Of a stretch of DNA of 27,052 nt, positions 6,852 to 25,565 are shown one piece after another. Position 1 is the stretch's first letter, and each line of letters starts with the position of its first letter. The notes beneath the pieces were generated by a model. The model was not told the DNA's origin, searched no databases, and was given only the letters and a program-made list of their open reading frames with translations. Origin of the DNA: a virus; the IMG/VR virus record IMGVR_UViG_3300045256_000094; one strand, written 5' to 3'. The position numbers and the translations under genes were made by a program.

Positions 6852-7307
6852 TTATTCTCCCCGCTCCTGGTCCCGTTGTTGGTCCCGCTTCTTGATCGTC
6901 TCCCGCTTGTCGTACTCCTTCTTACCCTTGACGACAGCGAGGATGACCTTCGCCTTGCCGCTCTTGATGATGACCCGGAGCGGGACGATGGTGAACCCCT
7001 TCTGCTCGGCCTTCTCGGCGAACTTGGCGATCTCGGCTTTCTTCAGTAAAAGCTTCCGCCGCCGTTCGGGTTCGTGGGTGACGTTCTTGGCGTTCTCGTA
7101 TGGCTCGATCTTGCACTTCACGAGCCAGACTTCCCCGTCCTTCACTTCGGCGTAGCTGCCGTCCAGGGAAATCTTGTGGGCACGAATGCTCTTGATCTCG
7201 TAACCCCGCAGCACCATCCCTGCCTCGACGGTATCGAGGATTTCGTAGTTGTACTCGGCTTTACGGTTGGTGGTAATCGTCACCACCGGCTGCGGTTCGT
7301 TCGACAT
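6852..7307 (-). CDS. smpB: SsrA-binding protein SmpB
   Basis: Characteristic SmpB segments: NRKAEYNYEI...AGMVLRGYEIKSIR, HEPERRRKLLLKKAEI, GFTIVPLRVIIKSGKAKVILAVVKGKK. Length 151 aa. GGAGGGG Shine-Dalgarno. Confidence 0.85.
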   Translation of the reverse strand: MSNEPQPVVTITTNRKAEYNYEILDTVEAGMVLRGYEIKSIRAHKISLDGSYAEVKDGEVWLVKCKIEPYENAKNVTHEPERRRKLLLKKAEIAKFAEKAEQKGFTIVPLRVIIKSGKAKVILAVVKGKKEYDKRETIKKRDQQRDQERGE

Positions 7308-10278: not shown

Positions 10279-11016
10279 TTACCTCGCACATTTGTCGCAG
10301 ACTGCGTTCTGGTTCCGCAGGTCCGCAAGGTGTTGACCATTCCTGTCCACAGCGTAGCACCAAGCTCCGTGATGGACCCCAGAAGTCGTGTACAACGTCG
10401 TCCGGTTCTTACACCGCTTGCTCTCGTTCTGGCAGGTAATCCGCCAGCGAACGGCAAACACGCCGTTCGGCAACTTCACCAGTGTACCACTGTCTCCGAA
10501 AATGTCATGCGAAACCCGGAAGCCGATGTAAGCGTCCAGGGTTTGCTTCGCCGCCGTGATCGAGTCCAGGTCGTTCGTCGTCACCCGGTTGTTGTTAATC
10601 ACGTTGATCCCGGCACTGTTGATGAACCCCTTCGCCGCCTCGGGGTAGATCAACTCCAGGTTCAGTCTCACCCGCTCCATCCGCAGCGGCTCCCAGAGCT
10701 TCATCATGCGGCGGATGCGTGCGGCGTTCGGACTCTCCGTCCATCCTTTCATCCGGTCAAAGAAGAACGGTTCCTGGCCCGCCTTCTCGAACAGACGCCC
10801 GCCCTTGAGCTTCAGCCGCTCCCGGTAGTACAACGCCCGACCCAACTGGTCGTCTGGCGGCAGGTCGGCACACGGCTCCCAGAGCGTGAAGATGGTCCGG
10901 TTGTCGAACACCACCTTCGAGGCGACGTTGGCCCCGAGCGGTGTCAGTTCGATGCTCTCCGGGTCGTACCAGGGGTGCGACTCGATGGTCAAGTCGCCCA
11001 CACGCTTGTGTGCCAT
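10279..11016 (-). CDS. Hypothetical protein with a C-terminal Cys cluster
   Basis: 245 aa. TAATG overlap with the upstream ORF. Confidence 0.55.
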   Translation of the reverse strand: MAHKRVGDLTIESHPWYDPESIELTPLGANVASKVVFDNRTIFTLWEPCADLPPDDQLGRALYYRERLKLKGGRLFEKAGQEPFFFDRMKGWTESPNAARIRRMMKLWEPLRMERVRLNLELIYPEAAKGFINSAGINVINNNRVTTNDLDSITAAKQTLDAYIGFRVSHDIFGDSGTLVKLPNGVFAVRWRITCQNESKRCKNRTTLYTTSGVHHGAWCYAVDRNGQHLADLRNQNAVCDKCAR

Positions 11017-11581
11017 TACAGTAGCTCCGTAGCGAGTTGGCGGTAGTCGGCGTGAATCTTTTCGGCGGTTGCCGCCCCGAAACGATTCAAGATGTCGATG
11101 TCTCGCTCTTTGACGAGGGTGGTCAGCCCCCTCGCACGGTTCAGGTACTTCGCAGCGTAGCGACGGTCCGTCACGGCGAAGTCCTTCACGTTACGGTAGC
11201 GGTCGGCCAGCTTCAGGACGACCACTTCAATCGGCTTGTCCTTGTACTCAGTCAAGTGGGCTTCCTTCGCCGCCTGATAGTCCTTCGGCAGTGTTCGTCA
11301 GGCAGCCGGTCCCGGAAGGTCAGCATCTCGACCCACCCGGCGACCTTCTCGCCGTACTTGAGCTTGATGCCTGCGACGGTCATCCCGGCGTCCTCCACGG
11401 TGTCGTGGAGCATCGCCGCAGCCCACAGTTCCGGCTCTTGTTCCCGAGAAATCTGCCACAGAGCCAGTTGCTCGGCCACCCCGAGGACGTGGATCATGTA
11501 CGGGACTTGGGTGCCCTTTCGCACCTGTTCCCCGTGCAGCATCACGGCGTCCATGTAGGCTTTGTGGACAATATCGCTCAT
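11016..11581 (-). pseudogene. Rel/SpoT-type HD-domain (p)ppGpp hydrolase (small alarmone hydrolase) interrupted by a frame change
   Basis: The 5-prime ORF (11252-11581) carries the HD signature: PYMIHVLGVAEQLA...AAAMLHDTVEDAG...YGEKVAGWVEMLTFRD. The 3-prime ORF (11016-11255) carries the downstream conserved block, KEAHLTEYKDKPIEVVVLKLADRYRNV. This is in another frame, minus one relative to the first, with the switch near 11290-11300. The two halves together give about 188 aa, the normal length for this family. Confidence 0.6.
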
Positions 11582-11600
11582 CTCGGCTCCTTTTTGGTTC

Positions 11601-11635
11601 CGCCTCTATTCTACTAGAAGTAGAGGGTTTGTAAA
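11601..11635 (-). promoter_or_regulatory. Putative sigma70-like promoter for the hydrolase gene, with a 15 bp palindrome
   Basis: On the minus strand: TTTACA (-35), 16 nt spacer, TAGAAT (-10), then an AAAGGAG Shine-Dalgarno. An inverted repeat, TCTACT-aga-AGTAGA (11610-11624), sits in the spacer. Confidence 0.3.
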
Positions 11636-11637
11636 AT

Positions 11638-12399
11638 ATGATCCACGCTAAAAAGGACAACTACCAGGGGGTCAACTGGTATCACTGCTTCAAGTTCCCG
11701 GACGGCTCCGAAACGCACGGGCACGACCGGCCGACTGCGGAGAAGGTGTCAGCCATTTTCGACCCAATCGACATCAAAGGCAAGACCGTTCTGGACATTT
11801 GCGCCTGGGACGGCTACTACTCGTTTGAGGCGGAAAGGCGTGGGGCTAAAGCGGTTGTGGCGAACGACCACTACTGTTGGAGCGGACCGGGTTGGGGGAC
11901 AAAGCGTGGATTTGAACTGGCCCGTGAACTTTACGGGTCGAAAGTCCTCGACTACGAATGCGAACTGATGAAAATCGACCCGAACAACGTCGGTCAGTTC
12001 GACGTTGTTCTCTTCCTCGGCGTCCTGTACCACCGGATCGAGGGCTTCCGCTGCCTGGAAATCTGCACCAACGTCTGCAAGGACATGCTGGTGGTGGAAA
12101 CCCTCACGCTCAACAGCGAAGATTGTGTTATTGAATACCTGCCGTCGGACCACATCTACGGGGATTACACCAACCAGATAGCCCCGACAACCAGGGCTGT
12201 TGTAGAATGTCTGTTAAGGTGTAACTTCCGAATGGTGTCATACAACCACTACGCTAAGGTCAGCGAGAGGTATAACAGAACTGTCTTCCACGCCCGGCTC
12301 AGTAAAGCAGTGTTGGTCGAACACGAACCCCCGGCACCGTTTCGGCAATTTGCAGGAGTCTGTCAGACGCCACGTTTATTTTGGCAGCATCGGCCTTAA
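11638..12399 (+). CDS. Class I SAM-dependent methyltransferase, CmoB/DUF1698-like
   Basis: GVNWYHCFKFPDGSETHG, VLDICAWDGYYS (motif I), FDVVLFLGVLYHR and LVVETLTLNSEDCVIEY align by eye to E. coli CmoB: WRKGPF...GVNIDTEW, ILDVGCGSGYH, GVLYHR, LVLETLVIDGDENTVL. Confidence 0.65.
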   Translation: MIHAKKDNYQGVNWYHCFKFPDGSETHGHDRPTAEKVSAIFDPIDIKGKTVLDICAWDGYYSFEAERRGAKAVVANDHYCWSGPGWGTKRGFELARELYGSKVLDYECELMKIDPNNVGQFDVVLFLGVLYHRIEGFRCLEICTNVCKDMLVVETLTLNSEDCVIEYLPSDHIYGDYTNQIAPTTRAVVECLLRCNFRMVSYNHYAKVSERYNRTVFHARLSKAVLVEHEPPAPFRQFAGVCQTPRLFWQHRP

Positions 12400-13441
12400 T
12401 GCGGTCCACCGAAATCTGAACCAATTCCGGTTTGTCGAAGTCTAGGTCAAGCTTCCGCAGGAAGTTCACCTTGATCGGGTACTTCGTGGACGCATCCTCG
12501 ATCTTCTTCTGGGCGTCACGGAACAACTCAACGTTGAAGTTATCCAATGTGATGAGCGGCACGTTGCAGGTCGGATTGAACTCCACTTCATCCATACCCA
12601 ACTCAGCCGCAATCCTCACCATATCAACAACCTCGTGAATGTTAAGTAGGTTGATGTTATTGTGAACACGAGCCACCTGACTCGGGGTACGCTTCTCGTT
12701 ATACTTCTTAGCCTGTTGCATGATCTTCTCAAACAACGGCAAGCGGCGGATCAGCTTATACGTCTCCGGTGTGGCGGCGTCCAGCGAGAACGTGAGACTA
12801 CTCTTGGGGTATTCCAAGAACCGCTCAATGCGGCTATCGGTTAACACCGTGCCGTTGGTGGTTGTACTGATGGCAACCCGGTCCTTGCGTTCATCTATAC
12901 CGAGCCACGTTGCGATTTGGAATAGCTTGTCTTTCCAGAACGCCTCGGCTACTCCCTGGATGTGAACAAGATTGAAATTGAAGGCATAGGGCTTCAACCG
13001 CCTGCACACTTCCTGCAACTTATCCTTCTGGCTCTCGAATCGTAGATTACGTTCGCACATCACGCAAGCCGGGTTCTTCTCCGTCGGCTTGAGTCCGCCG
13101 ATGTTGCAGTGTTGAGACGGCAAGTCAATCTCCAACTCCGTCGGTACGGCCCGGACATTGTATTCTTTAGCTTGTGCCGCAAGTTCGTCCGCCTTCATGT
13201 GTGCGAACGGGCAGCACTTCAACATAGAGCATGTCGAGTGCAACTTGTTATTCAAAGTATCCCGGCGAATCTCATTAGCCAAATCACTGTTCCAGATATC
13301 CTCGAATGTATCCTTTAACAGATTACCCAGACACTTACGTTCTTGGAAGCAGCAAAAAGTTACATCGCCTTCGCAGGTTACTTTAATGCGGGTAAACGGC
13401 AAGGCACAGAACGTCTTCACCGGGTAGTATTCATGAATCAT
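12299..13441 (-). CDS. Atypical radical-SAM enzyme, paralog 1
   Basis: N-terminal Cys-rich module: FCALPF...TCEGDVTFCCFQ...CLGN...IWNSDLA...C...CCPF. Core motifs: HCNIGGLKPTEKNPACVMC (Cx13Cx2C), GVAEPFWK (glycine-rich), ISTTTNGT, FSLDAATPETY. Confidence 0.7.
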   Translation of the reverse strand: MIHEYYPVKTFCALPFTRIKVTCEGDVTFCCFQERKCLGNLLKDTFEDIWNSDLANEIRRDTLNNKLHSTCSMLKCCPFAHMKADELAAQAKEYNVRAVPTELEIDLPSQHCNIGGLKPTEKNPACVMCERNLRFESQKDKLQEVCRRLKPYAFNFNLVHIQGVAEAFWKDKLFQIATWLGIDERKDRVAISTTTNGTVLTDSRIERFLEYPKSSLTFSLDAATPETYKLIRRLPLFEKIMQQAKKYNEKRTPSQVARVHNNINLLNIHEVVDMVRIAAELGMDEVEFNPTCNVPLITLDNFNVELFRDAQKKIEDASTKYPIKVNFLRKLDLDFDKPELVQISVDRIKADAAKINVASDRLLQIAETVPGVRVRPTLLY

Positions 13442-14555
13442 TCTTCACCTTGATCTGTAGTTGTACGAGTTCTTGCGACGGGGCAAGTTCCTGGCCGACT
13501 GGCGGCGGCAGCCGATCAAACGGCTTGGAGTAGAACAGCGGCACCCCCAACTGCTGTGCCCGGTGCATCGCCTTCTCCGAGTTCTCTTTGAATATCTTGA
13601 GGTTGCGTGGGTTCAACAACAAGTCATTCATATGAACCCGGCCACACTGGTCATGAGTCGGCAACATGATGACTTTATCTACTCGCAGTTCAGCCGCCGT
13701 CTCCACCATCTTTACCATCTCGTGTACGTTAATCAGGTTGATGTTATTGTAGATGATAGCTTGGTGACGCTGCGAGCCGCCGTTGCGATCCCGGAGCATC
13801 ATGTAATATCTCATGTTCCTGACGACAAGGTTATAGGCGTCAATTCGCCTGATCTTCTGGTACGTCTCCGGGCTGCCTGCGTCCACCGAGAACTGCATGT
13901 CGGACTCCATTACCTCGTCGAAGTACCGCTCGATGATCTTCTCCGTGAGGCAGGTGACGTTGGTGTTCGTAGTGAAACGGATGTGGTGTTTGTGTTCGGC
14001 GAACCCCACGAGATCAAACACCCGGAACACGGCATCCTTCCAGAACGGTTCGGCCACCCCCAGCACGCACAGGTGCTTCAAGTACGGCATGAGCGGCTTC
14101 GCCTTCTCGCAGAGCGTGTCGGTGATCGGCGGCTGTTTGTGGAAGTCGTAGTTCCGGCAGCACATGATGCAGGCCGGGTTGTCGTCGCCTGGGTCTTCCC
14201 CGCCGATGTTGCAGTGGGTGTTGGGCAGGCAGATTTCCAGGTAAGTCGGGTAATCGTGGTTCTTGTAGCTGCGGAACTCCTCCGGCTCCAAGTCCTTCAC
14301 CAAGTACGGGCAGGTGTTCCAACTCTTGCAGACCGGGTGCATCTGGTTCTGGAGGGTCTGTGAGCGAATATCCTTAGCCAACTCACTGTTCCATAACTCC
14401 ATTACTGTCGTATCCCCGAGGATGTTCCCTAGCTGTGTAAGCTGGTAGCAACACATGGACACGTCGCCCCAGCCGTTGAGGATCAACTTGGTGAAGGGCA
14501 ACGAGCAGAAAGCCTTGTGTGTTCTTTCCGGGATTTCGGAAGTGCGATGGAGCAT
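13431..14555 (-). CDS. Atypical radical-SAM enzyme, paralog 2
   Basis: Same architecture as paralog 1: AFCSLPF...SMCCYQ...LGN; HCNIGGEDPGDDNPACIMCC; GVAEPFWK; TTNTNVT; FSVDAGSPETY. Overlaps paralog 1 by 11 nt. Confidence 0.7.
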   Translation of the reverse strand: MLHRTSEIPERTHKAFCSLPFTKLILNGWGDVSMCCYQLTQLGNILGDTTVMELWNSELAKDIRSQTLQNQMHPVCKSWNTCPYLVKDLEPEEFRSYKNHDYPTYLEICLPNTHCNIGGEDPGDDNPACIMCCRNYDFHKQPPITDTLCEKAKPLMPYLKHLCVLGVAEPFWKDAVFRVFDLVGFAEHKHHIRFTTNTNVTCLTEKIIERYFDEVMESDMQFSVDAGSPETYQKIRRIDAYNLVVRNMRYYMMLRDRNGGSQRHQAIIYNNINLINVHEMVKMVETAAELRVDKVIMLPTHDQCGRVHMNDLLLNPRNLKIFKENSEKAMHRAQQLGVPLFYSKPFDRLPPPVGQELAPSQELVQLQIKVKNDS

Positions 14556-14567
14556 AGAGGTATTTAC

Positions 14568-15299
14568 ATGGCCCCGAGGAAAAAGTTAACTAAGGAACAA
14601 TGGGCAGAGCGATTTGCCGACGCCAAGCACGGCCACGTCCTCTGGGACGGCTGGGCCTCCGACCCGTACAACCCCGAACACGCCTACACGTCGAGCCACC
14701 AGTTCTACAACCACGCCAAGCGGCACGGCTTCTTCAAAACCGGCAGCAGCGTCCTCGACCTGGGCTGCGGCAACGGCCGGGTGCCCATCGCCCTGACCGA
14801 GCATTACGTCAAGTACGTCGGGGTTGACCCGGTTCAAAAGAGTATCGACTTCTGCAAGAAGGCGTTCGCCGATTGGCCCGACTTCCAGTTCATCTTCATG
14901 GACATCAAGAACGAGTCGTTTAACCCGGAGGGGGCCATTGACCCCGCCGCCCTGACGTTGCCCTTCCCTGACGGCCACTTCGATAACGTAATCTGCTACT
15001 CCGTGTTCACACACCTACAGGAGATCACCGTCGCCACCCGGTACATCATTGAAATCCTGCGTGTACTGAAGGAAGGCGGCAAGCTGTTCACGTCCTGGTA
15101 TCGCTGCCCGCCCAACCCCCTCGACAAGTTCGTGGGCAGGACGGTGTTCTTGGAGCGTGACATCCTGAACCTGCTCCAAGACTTCTACTTCAACGAGACG
15201 TATGGCGGGACGACCCCGCAGTATTACGACCAGTGGGCATTGTTCTGTACGAAGGGAAAGCTGCAATCAGAGAGTGATCTGCACGAGTTGGTCAGCTAG
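14568..15299 (+). CDS. Class I SAM-dependent methyltransferase
   Basis: VLDLGCGNGRV (motif I), FDNVICYSVFTHL (motif II), LKEGGKL (motif III). Alternative starts lie at 14517 and 14547, both of which would overlap the divergent radical-SAM gene start. Confidence 0.7.
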   Translation: MAPRKKLTKEQWAERFADAKHGHVLWDGWASDPYNPEHAYTSSHQFYNHAKRHGFFKTGSSVLDLGCGNGRVPIALTEHYVKYVGVDPVQKSIDFCKKAFADWPDFQFIFMDIKNESFNPEGAIDPAALTLPFPDGHFDNVICYSVFTHLQEITVATRYIIEILRVLKEGGKLFTSWYRCPPNPLDKFVGRTVFLERDILNLLQDFYFNETYGGTTPQYYDQWALFCTKGKLQSESDLHELVS

Positions 15300-16310
15300 T
15301 CCCATGTCGAGCGGCCGGATGAAGTTGTACGGCACGTTCAACTTCTGACACTCGGCAATGATGTCCTGCTGGGCCTTTTTGAACAACCCGCAGTTCTGTT
15401 CGTTCACCAGGATCGGCGTGTTGAAGCCGTCCGTCGGATTGAACTCAATGTACTCCACGTTCGCCTTGTGGGCGATGCGCACCATCCCAACAACTTCGTG
15501 TACGTTGTGTATGTTGATGTTGTTGTGAATGCGGAGGAACTGGCGTGCCCTCACCCGTTCCTTCGAGAAGGCGTACAGGTTCTCCAGAATCTTGTCGAAC
15601 AGCGGCAGGATTCTGATCTTCTTGAACGTCTCCGGTGTGGCTGCGTCGATGGAGAAGTTCGTGATGCTCCGGGGCACCCGCCGCAGGTATTCCTCCCGGA
15701 CGTGTTTGTGGAACAGGGTGCCGTTGGTCGTCGTGCTGATCGTGATCTGGTGCTTGTACTTGTCGAATTCCAGAATGTCCAGCATCTCGAACAGCAGGTT
15801 CTTGTAGAACGGCTCGGCAATGCCCTGGATGTGAATCTGGTGCAGGTTCGGGATCACATGCTTGATCCGGGCCAGCACTTCCTTCAGGTGATCCTTCTCC
15901 GGCTTGAAGAACGGGGCGGACCGCTCGCACATGATGCAGGCCGGGTGTGCGGGGCCGGGGTTCTCCAGGCCGATGTTGCAGTGGGTGTTCGGCAGGTCGA
16001 TCTCAAGGAACGTCGGATACTCGTTGTAGATGACCTGGACGGGCGGGCCGGGGTTCTTCATCAAGGCAAACGGACACCCCGGCACCTTGCACTTCTTGTG
16101 CAACCTGCCTTCGAGGGTGTCCGTGCGGATGGCCTCGGCCTCTTCGCCGAACCAGATGTCATCGAACGGTTTTTCGAGAACGTTGCCGATGTAGGCGTCG
16201 GACTCTGCCGCCAGCGGGTCAACCCGCTGGAAGCAGCACATGGCACAGTTGCCCTCGGCTGTCACTCGAAGGCGGTTGAATGGGTACTGACAGAACGCTT
16301 GGACTTCCAT
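15267..16310 (-). CDS. Atypical radical-SAM enzyme, paralog 3
   Basis: AFCQYPF...AMCCFQ...IGN; HCNIGLENPGPAHPACIMC (Cx13Cx2C); GIAEPFYK; ISTTTNGT; FSIDAATPETF. Confidence 0.7.
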   Translation of the reverse strand: MEVQAFCQYPFNRLRVTAEGNCAMCCFQRVDPLAAESDAYIGNVLEKPFDDIWFGEEAEAIRTDTLEGRLHKKCKVPGCPFALMKNPGPPVQVIYNEYPTFLEIDLPNTHCNIGLENPGPAHPACIMCERSAPFFKPEKDHLKEVLARIKHVIPNLHQIHIQGIAEPFYKNLLFEMLDILEFDKYKHQITISTTTNGTLFHKHVREEYLRRVPRSITNFSIDAATPETFKKIRILPLFDKILENLYAFSKERVRARQFLRIHNNINIHNVHEVVGMVRIAHKANVEYIEFNPTDGFNTPILVNEQNCGLFKKAQQDIIAECQKLNVPYNFIRPLDMGLADQLVQITL

Positions 16311-17854: not shown

Positions 17855-18270
17855 TTCTTCCCCTTCTTCTTGGAGTCGTCCTCTTCCTCTTCCACGAGCG
17901 GGGCGTTGGGGTCGATGCGGTAGCAGGTTTCCATCCGCTTCCGGTCCCAAACGATCACCACCCGTCCTTCCTCGAAGGCGGCGTTGTTGGCGATGTCCTT
18001 CGCATCGGCCAGCACGTCCGTCTCGTCGAAGCTCTTGTACTTGTTCTTCTCTTTCGCATCTTGCAGCGAGATGTCGAACTGCTTGCCGTCCCGCCGCCAC
18101 TCCTCGCCCGGAGGGTATTCCTTCTCCGGCGTCCGTGGCTTCTCTGGCTTGGCTTGTGGCTCTGCGGCCGGTTCTTCCGTAGCCGTGGCTGTCGGGGCGT
18201 CGTCCTCGTCGGCCATCCCAGGCAGAGGGATATCCAGGTCGAGCTTCTTCTTAGACTTGCCACGAGCCAT
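17851..18270 (-). CDS. Hypothetical acidic/lysine-rich protein
   Basis: 139 aa intact ORF. Confidence 0.5.
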   Translation of the reverse strand: MARGKSKKKLDLDIPLPGMADEDDAPTATATEEPAAEPQAKPEKPRTPEKEYPPGEEWRRDGKQFDISLQDAKEKNKYKSFDETDVLADAKDIANNAAFEEGRVVIVWDRKRMETCYRIDPNAPLVEEEEDDSKKKGKK

Positions 18271-18613
18271 CGGCGACTTCCTCCAACCCGGTTATGTCTT
18301 CATTGAAGAGATAGGTGGAAGCGGTCCGCCCGTCGGCCAGGGTGATTTCCTGTCTGCGGAAGAGGCCGGTGTCCACTGCCTCCACTTTATCAAGGATGGG
18401 CAGGATTGTAAAAGGGATTTCGTAGACTTCGCCGTGGACGCCTGGGCCAGTGGGGTCTTCCACCATGCCGGGGAACCAGTTGACCCGATATAAACGAAAA
18501 GCAGGCCCGGTATGGGCCTGCCCTTTGTACTCGGCACCGTTGTTCTGGAGATACTTGTTGAGCCTACCGCCTTGCTTTAAGGTGCCATAGCAGAAGAGGA
18601 GTGTTGTTTCCAT
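18251..18613 (-). CDS. Gamma-glutamyl cyclotransferase / AIG2-like family protein
   Basis: LFCYGTLKQGG...GEVYEI...LDKVE pattern typical of the GGCT/AIG2 fold. Confidence 0.6.
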   Translation of the reverse strand: METTLLFCYGTLKQGGRLNKYLQNNGAEYKGQAHTGPAFRLYRVNWFPGMVEDPTGPGVHGEVYEIPFTILPILDKVEAVDTGLFRRQEITLADGRTASTYLFNEDITGLEEVADGSWQV

Positions 18614-19152
18614 AATGACTCAGCCATCCTTAGCACGTCGGCATCGCTGTAGTCCGACTTCGCCTTATTGTAGATCACGCACACGATTCGACAGTTGTCC
18701 TTCGTGTAGCCCTTGCCGTTGTTCGCCCGGTCAATGGACGGTCGAAACGGCGTGTGAGCCACATTATCCTGTCTTTCGAGTAGCAAGTCAACTCCAGTCG
18801 CCTCGCACTTCATCGTCTTGAGCCGTGCTTCCAACCACTCTCTGTCCAGGTCGCACTCCAGCCCATTTGTCTTCGCCCGGTTCTTGGCGGCGGTGAGCAA
18901 GTTCGTGACCATGCCAGAGAATGTGGCGTTGTAGTCCTTGCGGTATGATCTGTCGTATGCCTTGTGCTTCTCGGTCTTCCGAAGCTCCTTCTGGTAAGAC
19001 GTGAAGTAATCGGCACGCTTGTTGTATTGGTTGTAGCCACCAGACTTTTTATACTCGTTGTAGCAGGGCTTACAACGGCTACCCGGCTTGCCCTTGCTTT
19101 GAGTGAACTGATCGAGCGGCTTTGGCTCTTGGCAGATAGAACATTTCTTCAT
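18577..19152 (-). CDS. HNH endonuclease with an N-terminal zinc ribbon
   Basis: CSICQ...CKPC at the N-terminus. C-terminal HNH-like block: AHTPFRPSIDRANNGKGYTKDNCRIVCVIYN. Confidence 0.6.
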   Translation of the reverse strand: MKKCSICQEPKPLDQFTQSKGKPGSRCKPCYNEYKKSGGYNQYNKRADYFTSYQKELRKTEKHKAYDRSYRKDYNATFSGMVTNLLTAAKNRAKTNGLECDLDREWLEARLKTMKCEATGVDLLLERQDNVAHTPFRPSIDRANNGKGYTKDNCRIVCVIYNKAKSDYSDADVLRMAESLWKQHSSSAMAP

Positions 19153-19232: not shown

Positions 19233-19439
19233 TCACATCGCCTTCCTTGTTGGCTGAGTCGCATCGGGAGCGGGGCGACCGCTCTTGATGGCCTCGTAGA
19301 CTTCCTCCCGGTGGACGGGCACGTCTTTCGGTGCCACGATGCCGAGGCGAACCTTGTCGCCCCGGATTTCCACGACGGTGATCTGGATGTTGTCGCCGAT
19401 GACGATGGACTCGTTCGGCTTCCTCGACAGTACCAGCAT
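19233..19439 (-). CDS. csrA: Carbon storage regulator CsrA
   Basis: [55 protein letters not shown] Shine-Dalgarno. The ORF upstream of this ATG is Arg-rich junk. Confidence 0.85.
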
Positions 19440-25382: not shown

Positions 25383-25565
25383 ATGTTAGTCTTGTCCCGC
25401 AAGAAGGACGAAAAAATCCTGCTTAAGCTCGGGTCCGAGGAGGTTGAATTGACCGTGGTTCGGATCGACGCAAACAAGGTACGGCTAGGGATTAAGGCTT
25501 CGGAGAAGGTCGATATTCTCCGAAGCGAACTGGTCGGCAAGGTGGCTACCGAAGAAGCTCGCTGA
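25383..25565 (+). CDS. csrA: CsrA-family RNA-binding regulator, second copy
   Basis: MLVLSRKKDEKILLKLGSEEVELTVVRIDANKVRLGIKASEKVDILRSEL. GGAGG Shine-Dalgarno. TATAAAT -10-like element upstream. Confidence 0.75.
   Translation: MLVLSRKKDEKILLKLGSEEVELTVVRIDANKVRLGIKASEKVDILRSELVGKVATEEAR

What the first reader, a model, noticed from the sequence alone, without database searches (positions are those of the whole stretch)
11016..11581. (p)ppGpp hydrolase gene split by a frame change: a recoding event, a pseudogene or an assembly error
The HD motif block and the downstream conserved LKLADR block of one Rel/SpoT-type hydrolase lie in two frames that overlap around 11250-11300. Joining them gives a normal ~188 aa small alarmone hydrolase. 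A phage-borne alarmone hydrolase would blunt the host stringent response. Whether it is made by -1 ribosomal frameshifting, is decaying, or reflects a 1 nt indel error is open.
Basis: seen in the sequence. Interest (0 to 1): 0.55.

Follow-up and report, generated by a model that had tools for sequence, protein, structure and literature searches.

The report
Alarmone hydrolase gene broken by 2-bp insertion
A small (p)ppGpp-type hydrolase gene in what is probably a large uncultivated phage has been split by a real two-base insertion that its relatives lack, so it is most likely a recently inactivated gene, not programmed recoding or a sequencing error.

Summary
On the minus strand, a 109-aa ORF (11581..11252) carries SAH (small alarmone hydrolase) motifs HD1-HD4. 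A 79-aa ORF (11255..11016) carries HD5-HD6 in the -1 frame. Joined, they match Pfam HD_4 from end to end.

The lesion is not a 1-nt indel. It is a 2-nt insertion (GAA-CA-CTG; ACAC at 11291-11294) relative to every intact ortholog. Eleven homologs (51-84% identity) are unbroken at 185-296 aa. Those whose surroundings were fetched long enough sit in the same gene neighbourhood.

The same broken sequence appears at 100% identity in two Logan assemblies from different sequencing runs. The exact 109-aa product is also on record on a JGI contig. All other syntenic genes in the window read in a single frame. An assembly error is therefore unlikely.

The 46-nt stretch where a frame switch could be productive has no slippery heptamer, no homopolymer of 5 or more bases, no unusual RNA fold (z = -0.75) and no Rfam match.

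The best reading is a recent, non-programmed frameshift mutation: a young pseudogene. Neither fragment has all the metal ligands, and 13 residues, six of them invariant or nearly so, are encoded in neither. Phage-encoded SAHs are already known. Interest is low.

The parts
11252..11581 (-). ORF1: the N-terminal 96 residues of the SAH (motifs HD1 R21, HD2 H31, HD3 H59-D60, HD4 E63-D64), followed by 13 out-of-frame residues (HCRRTIRRRRKPT) and a TGA stop at 11254..11252
   Evidence: (HD_4 35.1 bits). The exact product, P0008, is on record from JGI and Logan assemblies.
11291..11294 (-). The lesion. ACAC on the coding strand holds a 2-nt insertion (CA/AC) between codon GAA (E96) and codon CTG (L97), and is absent from all intact orthologs. 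It looks like a tandem duplication of one AC dinucleotide (inference).
   Evidence: DNA alignment. Protein alignment. Removing the 2 nt gives an intact 187-aa ORF.
11252..11297 (-). The 46-nt zone where both frames are open, so the only place where a -1 (or +2) switch could yield a full-length product. It contains no X XXY YYZ heptamer and no homopolymer of 5 or more bases.
   Evidence: RNA fold of 11170-11300 gives z = -0.75. No Rfam match.
11016..11291 (-). The C-terminal coding part of the ancestral gene (L97 to L187, TAA stop at 11018..11016) in the -1 frame, still free of stops or further indels. It holds HD5 (D126-R127 in KLADR) and HD6 (N130).
   Evidence: residues 96-185 of the L004 ortholog align at 11288..11019.
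11016..11255 (-). ORF2 as gene callers report it: 79 aa from a TTG that overlaps the ORF1 stop (TTGA), so re-initiation is conceivable. The TTG codes the conserved L110 of the ancestral protein.
   Evidence: The same TTG is present in the intact orthologs, so it is a by-product of coding sequence.
11263..11267 (-). An AAGGA Shine-Dalgarno-like motif starting 12 nt upstream of the ORF2 TTG. It lies inside the conserved AKEAHL coding sequence.
   Evidence: The same motif is in the orthologs (AAGGAAGC in L003, AAGGAGCA in L004).

Best explanation
This is a genuine, non-programmed frameshift mutation. A 2-bp insertion, probably a replication-slippage duplication of an AC dinucleotide (GAACTG to GAACACTG), arose in the loop before helix 98-114 of a stand-alone small alarmone hydrolase (SAH, RelA/SpoT-homologue hydrolase domain, Pfam HD_4). 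The gene lies on a large, probably phage, genome.

Translation from the normal start yields a 109-aa protein. It has the guanine-stacking Arg, three of the four Mn2+ ligands and the catalytic Glu-Asp pair. It lacks the fourth metal ligand (Asp of KLADR) and the HD6 Asn, so it should be inactive as a hydrolase (inference from the motif definitions in PMC9293644). The downstream 79-aa piece might be made by re-initiation at the overlapping TTG. Even so, 13 residues (LPKDYQAAKEAHL), six of them invariant or nearly invariant in the family, would be encoded in neither piece.

The gene is therefore most likely a young pseudogene in this lineage. The intact ancestral enzyme, still present in sister lineages, most likely removed 3'-pyrophosphates from (p)ppGpp or (p)ppApp, or from tRNA modified by toxSAS toxins, for the benefit of the phage. 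That function is inferred from homology and was not tested.

Shown: the split, the 2-nt insertion, its presence in several assemblies, intact orthologs, and the absence of recoding signals. Inferred: the mutational mechanism, loss of activity, the ancestral substrate, and phage origin.
For: 1. Split and family. The joined protein matches HD_4 over profile positions 8-132 at 48.1 bits, against a 27.2-bit cut-off. It matches solved SAH and Rel hydrolase domains (RelH 7qoe at E = 3e-12, B. subtilis Rel, Mesh1, PaSAH). The AF2 model of the 84%-identical ortholog has pLDDT 91. Its best Foldseek matches are PaSAH, RelH and Mesh1, with TM 0.63-0.74.
2. The lesion is a 2-nt insertion relative to intact orthologs. 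All 11 homologs found are unbroken: ten are 185-190 aa and one is 296 aa with an N-terminal extension. L004, L005, L111 and L112 show conserved gene order around the intact gene, and the 1.6-kb L003 contig is compatible with it.
3. It is real DNA. Logan contigs from runs SRR35386017 and SRR35364766 are 100% identical to the window over 4.06 and 3.98 kb, including the insertion. JGI contigs (the longest 169 kb) carry the same two ORF products.
4. The window is not error-prone. Every other protein of L004 and L111 that finds a counterpart in the window aligns there in one frame; only this gene changes frame.
5. There are no recoding signals. No X XXY YYZ heptamer and no homopolymer of 5 or more bases lie in the 46-nt productive zone. 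The RNA fold gives z = -0.75. There is no Rfam hit.
6. The catalytic motifs are divided: HD1-HD4 in ORF1 and HD5-HD6 in ORF2 (definitions in PMC9293644). In the 13 residues encoded in neither piece, K105 and L109 are invariant and Y101, Q102, A104 and H108 nearly so.
7. The lesion is recent. There are no other stops or indels. Lineage-specific changes are 15 synonymous and 13 non-synonymous on the window branch, against 19 and 14 on the intact L003 branch.
Against: The C-terminal part shows no decay and no measurable relaxation of selection. That fits a very recent lesion, but it equally fits a gene that is still used.

The ORF1 stop overlaps a TTG preceded by AAGGA at the spacing this genome uses for real starts. 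A two-piece product therefore cannot be excluded.

No read-level data were available. I could not measure whether an intact allele coexists in the population. The sequencing runs also cannot be shown to come from independent samples.
Confidence: 0.8

Rival explanations
1. A split but functional gene. ORF1 is translated, the ribosome terminates at TGA and re-initiates at the overlapping TTG (TTGA, with AAGGA starting 12 nt upstream). The 109-aa and 79-aa fragments then assemble into an active two-chain hydrolase.
For: The stop and start overlap, and there is a Shine-Dalgarno-like motif at the spacing used by ORF1 and by the ClpX-like gene. The ORF2 sequence is fully preserved with HD5 and HD6 intact. 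The break lies in a surface loop (residues 88-97) between helices.
Against: The TTG and AAGGA are also present in the intact orthologs, because they encode the conserved K-E-x-H-L. They are not an adaptation. The two pieces together lack 13 residues (LPKDYQAAKEAHL) forming most of helix 98-114, with invariant K105 and L109. ORF1 also ends in an Arg-rich nonsense tail. No other family member is split.
Confidence: 0.08
2. Programmed -1 ribosomal frameshifting, or +2 bypass, within 11252-11297 yields a full-length SAH at a regulated ratio to the 109-aa product.
For: The frame relationship is -1, and a 46-nt zone is open in both frames. The downstream frame is undamaged. The junction lies in a variable loop that might tolerate a few altered residues.
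Against: The zone has no X XXY YYZ heptamer and no homopolymer for transcriptional slippage. There is no unusual downstream RNA structure (z = -0.75) and no Rfam frameshift element. All 11 homologs are unbroken, so the arrangement is not conserved.
Confidence: 0.04
3. A sequencing or assembly artefact: the real genome has an intact gene.
For: No reads could be inspected. All carriers are 100% identical and might derive from one project or one sample series.
Against: The same insertion appears in contigs from two different runs built with Logan's pipeline, and the same ORF products are on record on JGI contigs. A 2-nt insertion in non-homopolymer sequence is not a typical platform error (own knowledge). 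No other syntenic gene compared shows a frame break.
Confidence: 0.05

Closest known systems
Stand-alone phage-encoded small alarmone hydrolases (PaSpo of Salmonella phage SSU5, PbcSpo of phage PVP-SE1)
   Same: Both are single-domain RelA/SpoT-homologue hydrolases of about 190 aa, encoded by a phage or a probable phage. Both tested phage SAHs neutralise all tested toxSAS toxins (PMC7229694, PMC9712102). tblastn finds HD_4-type genes in 85 phage records, including jumbo phages.
   Different: Identity to any isolate-phage homolog is at most 37%. The window copy is interrupted by a frameshift, and no activity is known for this clade.
Bacterial SAHs with solved structures: RelH of Leptospira levettii (7QOE) and Corynebacterium glutamicum (7QOD), PaSAH (6YVC, 6Z3O), and metazoan Mesh1 (3NR1, 5VXA)
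   Same: The same all-helical fold is predicted (Foldseek probability 1.0, TM 0.63-0.74, over the full length of the ortholog model).
   Different: Only 20-25% identity in the structural alignments. The substrate (ppGpp, ppApp, pyrophosphorylated tRNA or NADPH) cannot be read from sequence. The window gene is split.
Programmed -1 frameshift genes (dnaX; the phage tail assembly chaperone G/GT type)
   Same: Two overlapping ORFs in a 0/-1 frame relationship within one functional gene.
   Different: Those sites have a conserved slippery heptamer, usually with a stimulatory structure, and the arrangement is conserved among orthologs (own knowledge). Here none of the three holds.

Membership tests
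Small alarmone hydrolase (RSH hydrolase domain, Pfam HD_4 PF13328) | Match to the HD_4 profile above the gathering score | tested here: met
   The repaired protein scores 48.1 bits against a 27.2-bit cut-off, over profile positions 8-132 of 156. ORF1 alone scores 35.1 bits.
Small alarmone hydrolase (RSH hydrolase domain, Pfam HD_4 PF13328) | Catalytic motifs HD1 (Arg), HD2 (His), HD3 (His-Asp), HD4 (Glu-Asp), HD5 (Asp-Arg/Lys) and HD6 (Asn), as defined in PMC9293644 | tested here: met
   R21, H31, H59-D60, E63-D64, D126-R127 and N130 are all present and invariant in the clade, and align with the Rel and RelH motifs. HD1-HD4 and HD5-HD6 lie in different reading frames.
Small alarmone hydrolase (RSH hydrolase domain, Pfam HD_4 PF13328) | One uninterrupted ORF encoding the whole domain | tested here: not met
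   A 2-nt insertion at 11291-11294 splits the gene into 109-aa and 79-aa ORFs. The gene is homologous to the family, but the window copy cannot give a standard family member by ordinary translation.
Small alarmone hydrolase (RSH hydrolase domain, Pfam HD_4 PF13328) | Single-domain helical SAH/Mesh1 fold without a synthetase domain | tested here: met
   Tested on the intact ortholog P0001 (84% identical): AF2 pLDDT 91, 12 helices. The top Foldseek PDB hits are PaSAH, RelH and Mesh1. Ten of the 11 homologs are 185-190 aa; P0011 is 296 aa with an N-terminal extension.
Small alarmone hydrolase (RSH hydrolase domain, Pfam HD_4 PF13328) | Mn2+-dependent 3'-pyrophosphohydrolase activity on (p)ppGpp or (p)ppApp | not testable with these tools
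   Needs an enzyme assay of the repaired and the split products.
Programmed -1 ribosomal frameshift site | Slippery heptamer X XXY YYZ in the zone where both frames are open | tested here: not met
   None in 11252-11297. The only heptamer in the gene (AAAGGGC, at about 11513-11519) lies upstream of a stop in the -1 frame.
Programmed -1 ribosomal frameshift site | Stimulatory downstream RNA structure | tested here: not met
   The fold of 11170-11300 (minus strand) gives -38.4 kcal/mol and z = -0.75; 46 of 200 shuffles fold at least as well. No Rfam element.
Programmed -1 ribosomal frameshift site | The frameshift arrangement is conserved among orthologs | tested here: not met
   All 11 homologs are unbroken single ORFs. 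Where context was fetched, gene order is conserved.
Transcriptional slippage or phase-variable repeat | A long homopolymer or a multi-unit short repeat at the shift site | tested here: not met
   The overlap zone has no homopolymer of 5 or more bases. The only repeat is (AC)2.
Frameshift pseudogene | A disabling indel relative to intact orthologs, real in the DNA | tested here: met
   2-nt insertion. Identical in contigs from two runs, with the same products on JGI contigs. It is the only broken gene in the syntenic block. Read-level confirmation was not possible.
Frameshift pseudogene | Signs of relaxed selection or further lesions | tested here: inconclusive
   No further stops or indels. 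The window branch has 15 synonymous and 13 non-synonymous changes, against 19 and 14 on the intact L003 branch. This fits a very recent lesion but does not prove loss of function.

The most novel reading that the evidence does not exclude
The split is tolerated or exploited. Termination at TGA is followed by re-initiation at the overlapping TTG, or low-level non-canonical -1 shifting occurs in the 46-nt zone. Either would give a working two-chain or fused hydrolase, making this a natural split SAH or a frameshift site without a canonical slippery sequence.
Probability: 0.1. Interest if true: 0.5.

Novelty: new member of a known kind. Interest (0 to 1): 0.15.

Why it matters
It matters little beyond annotation. 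The two ORFs (one labelled 'myo-inositol monophosphatase' by JGI) should be annotated as one frameshifted SAH pseudogene.

It also records a clade of SAH-like genes with no close relative in representative bacterial genomes, IMG/VR or isolate phages. These genes sit in a conserved block with radical-SAM, SmpB, ClpX and CsrA genes on large, probably viral, contigs. One lineage has lost the gene, which suggests the enzyme is dispensable under some conditions, for example in hosts without toxSAS defences. If the intact orthologs were tested, they could extend the known range of phage counter-defence hydrolases.

Tried and rejected
- blastn of 10900-11700 against isolate phages found no match. tblastn of the flanking 584-aa and 245-aa ORFs against phages found no match. 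Nothing was learned about the host or the phage group.
- Scans of IMG/VR, metagenome contigs and GTDB genomes for closer relatives that might carry the same split or an intact allele found only distant homologs (at most 39% identity), plus the already known 64% one. The question of an intact allele at more than 90% identity stays open.
- I tried to extend beyond the window through exact-product look-ups of four window proteins, to find capsid or terminase genes. Three were not on record and one gave only a 1.3-kb contig. Viral origin therefore rests on gene content alone: PHROG hits to RNA ligase, endonuclease VII and PRPP synthetase, many ORFs without any match, and homing endonucleases.
- P0002 (76% identity) could not be located on a contig.
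- Considered and rejected: a 1-nt deletion (the alignment shows +2 nt); an intron or intein (only 2 nt differ); a phase-variable repeat (only two AC units).
- The relative-rate and dN/dS-style count is too small to separate 'recent pseudogene' from 'still selected'.

Full report
**What is there**

The feature lies on the minus strand. ORF1 runs 11581..11252 and encodes 109 aa. It starts at an ATG with AAGGAG 11 nt upstream and contains ...VPYMIHVL...MLHDTVED... ORF2, as a gene caller sees it, runs 11255..11016 and encodes 79 aa from a TTG. It contains ...VVLKLADRYRNV....

ORF1 alone hits Pfam HD_4 (PF13328) at 35.1 bits over profile positions 8-84. ORF2 alone hits nothing. The two joined hit HD_4 at 48.1 bits over positions 8-132 of 156, and the general HD profile over 2-114 of 116. 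tblastn with an intact ortholog gives two collinear pieces in frames -1 and -3: residues 2-95 at 11572..11291 and 96-185 at 11288..11019, with a joint E of 4e-73.

**Nature of the lesion**

A search of the 5.8-billion-protein collection found 11 homologs at 51-84% identity. All are unbroken: ten are 185-190 aa and one is 296 aa with an N-terminal extension. The search also returned the 109-aa ORF1 product itself, P0008.

In the protein alignment the relatives read ...FRDRLPDE-LPKDYQAAKEAHL... with no extra residue at the junction. The DNA alignment with the two closest orthologs whose DNA could be fetched shows two extra bases in the window: GACGA-AC-ACTGCCGAAGG against GACGA--GCTACCCAAAG (L003) and GATGA--GCAGCCGAAGG (L004). 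Deleting the two bases restores a 187-aa ORF with DELPKDYQ, identical at this point to the 84% ortholog.

The coding-strand sequence is GAA-CA-CTG, that is ACAC at window 11291-11294. The simplest history is a synonymous GAG-to-GAA change followed by duplication of an AC dinucleotide (inference).

**Is it real DNA?**

The exact 109-aa product is on record from JGI (longest contig 169,027 bp) and from Logan assemblies of two different runs, SRR35386017 and SRR35364766. Each of those contigs was seen in two samples. Both Logan contigs are 100% identical to the window over 4,058 and 3,982 bases, including the insertion. The 79-aa product is likewise on record from both JGI and Logan, differing only in writing the TTG start as L or M.

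As a control on overall sequence quality, I ran tblastn with the proteins of two syntenic relatives, L004 and L111, against the window. Every protein that finds a counterpart in the window aligns in a single frame. Only the HD_4 gene changes frame.

A 2-nt insertion outside any homopolymer is not a typical sequencing error (own knowledge). An assembly artefact is therefore unlikely, though reads could not be inspected.

**Is it programmed recoding?**

A productive switch must occur between the last stop in the ORF2 frame (TGA at 11300..11298) and the ORF1 stop (TGA at 11254..11252). That is a 46-nt zone, 11252-11297.

- The zone holds no X XXY YYZ heptamer and no homopolymer of 5 or more bases. 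The only canonical heptamer in the gene lies far upstream, where the -1 frame is closed before it reaches ORF2.
- The RNA from 11300 to 11170 folds no better than shuffled controls (z = -0.75).
- Rfam gives no match, either at gathering thresholds over the whole window or at E up to 1 over 10900-11700.
- The arrangement is not conserved. The orthologs in L004, L005, L111 and L112 sit in conserved gene order and are intact: Methyltransf_9 gene on the opposite strand, HD_4, a protein of about 245 aa, three small ORFs, then a Nuc_deoxyribosyltransferase-like gene. The short L003 contig is compatible with this order.

None of the defining features of a programmed frameshift is met.

**What the products could do**

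The repaired protein matches solved SAH and Rel hydrolase domains by sequence: RelH of Leptospira levettii (7QOE) at E = 3e-12, B. subtilis Rel at about 1e-11, and also PaSAH, Mesh1 and RelSeq. An AF2 model of the intact 84% ortholog (pLDDT 91, pTM 0.87, 12 helices) has as its best PDB matches PaSAH, RelH and Mesh1, with probability 1.0 and TM 0.63-0.74.

PMC9293644 defines six motifs: HD1 Arg and HD6 Asn hold the base, HD2 His, HD3 His-Asp and HD5 Asp bind Mn2+, and HD4 Glu-Asp is catalytic. By that definition the window gene has all six. R21, H31, H59-D60 and E63-D64 lie in ORF1. D126-R127 and N130 lie in ORF2.

The insertion falls in the loop at residues 88-97, just before helix 98-114. ORF1 ends with 13 nonsense residues (HCRRTIRRRRKPT). 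ORF2 from its TTG begins at ancestral residue 110. The 13 residues LPKDYQAAKEAHL are encoded in neither product. K105 and L109 are invariant in the family, and Y101, Q102, A104 and H108 nearly so.

ORF1 alone lacks one metal ligand and the HD6 Asn. I therefore infer that hydrolase activity is lost.

**The caveat**

The ORF1 stop overlaps the ORF2 TTG (TTGA), and an AAGGA starts 12 nt upstream of it. That is about the spacing seen at ORF1 and at the ClpX-like gene. Re-initiation is therefore conceivable. These signals are also present in the intact orthologs, because they encode the conserved AKEAHL, so they are not adaptations.

The downstream frame has no further stops or indels. Using L004 as outgroup, the window branch has 15 synonymous and 13 non-synonymous changes, against 19 and 14 on the branch to the intact L003 gene. 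This means most of that branch evolved under purifying selection and the lesion is recent. It cannot exclude continued use.

**Context**

The window encodes:
- an RNA ligase, SmpB and a Nuc_deoxyribosyltransferase-like protein;
- three radical-SAM/SPASM paralogs, methyltransferases and a metallophosphatase;
- ClpX, CsrA, an M50 peptidase and a glycosyltransferase;
- a PRPP synthetase and an endonuclease VII/HNH protein;
- many ORFs with no family match.

Relatives carry LAGLIDADG homing endonucleases in the same block. The SAH clade has no relative above 40% identity in 185,579 representative bacterial and archaeal genomes, in IMG/VR or in isolate phages. This fits a large uncultivated phage. 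No structural gene was seen, and attempts to extend the contig failed, so 'phage-borne' is probable rather than shown.

**Comparison with what is known**

Stand-alone phage SAHs are known. PaSpo (Salmonella phage SSU5) and PbcSpo (phage PVP-SE1) neutralise all tested toxSAS toxins (PMC7229694). PaSpo is routinely co-expressed to tame CapRel (PMC9712102). HD_4-type genes occur in 85 isolate-phage records, including jumbo phages such as BcepSauron. A phage SAH as such is therefore not new, and a frameshifted copy is an ordinary event.

**Verdict**

This is a real split of a real SAH-family gene, caused by a genuine 2-bp insertion that intact orthologs lack. It is most likely a young pseudogene (confidence about 0.8). 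Residual possibilities are a two-chain enzyme by re-initiation (about 0.08), a sequencing artefact (about 0.05) and non-canonical programmed frameshifting (about 0.04). Interest is low, at 0.15.

Noticed in passing
window 12299-13441, 13431-14555 and 15267-16310 (all minus strand): Three paralogous radical-SAM proteins (35-44% identical to each other). Pfam places the SPASM iron-sulfur domain at the N-terminus (about residues 7-79) and the Radical_SAM core after it (about residues 124-275), the reverse of the usual order. The trio is conserved in the relatives L004, L111 and L112.
   Followed up: no
window 6852-7307 (minus strand): A full-length SmpB gene (Pfam SmpB, 181.7 bits) on a probable phage contig. 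ARAGORN and Rfam find no tmRNA or tRNA anywhere in the 27-kb window. It is also present in L111.
   Followed up: partly
window 18577-19152 (minus strand): An endonuclease VII/HNH-type ORF sits between the CsrA gene (19242-19439) and the GGACT-domain gene (18254-18601). Those two genes are adjacent in relative L004, so this is probably a homing-endonuclease insertion. L111 and L112 carry LAGLIDADG genes at other places in the same block.
   Followed up: partly
window 19242-19439 (minus strand) and 25383-25532 (plus strand): Two CsrA-like coding regions in one window. The second is only 46% identical to the L004 CsrA and lies on the opposite strand from most genes.
   Followed up: no
window 11016-11581; JGI annotation of P0008 and P0002: JGI names the 109-aa fragment and one intact ortholog 'myo-inositol-1(or 4)-monophosphatase'. 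Every profile and structure comparison here contradicts that name, so it is probably a propagated mis-annotation.
   Followed up: yes
window 11638-12399 (plus strand) versus 12299-13441 (minus strand): The Methyltransf_9-like gene and the convergent radical-SAM gene overlap by about 100 nt at their 3' ends. The same overlap is called in L004, L111 and L112.
   Followed up: no
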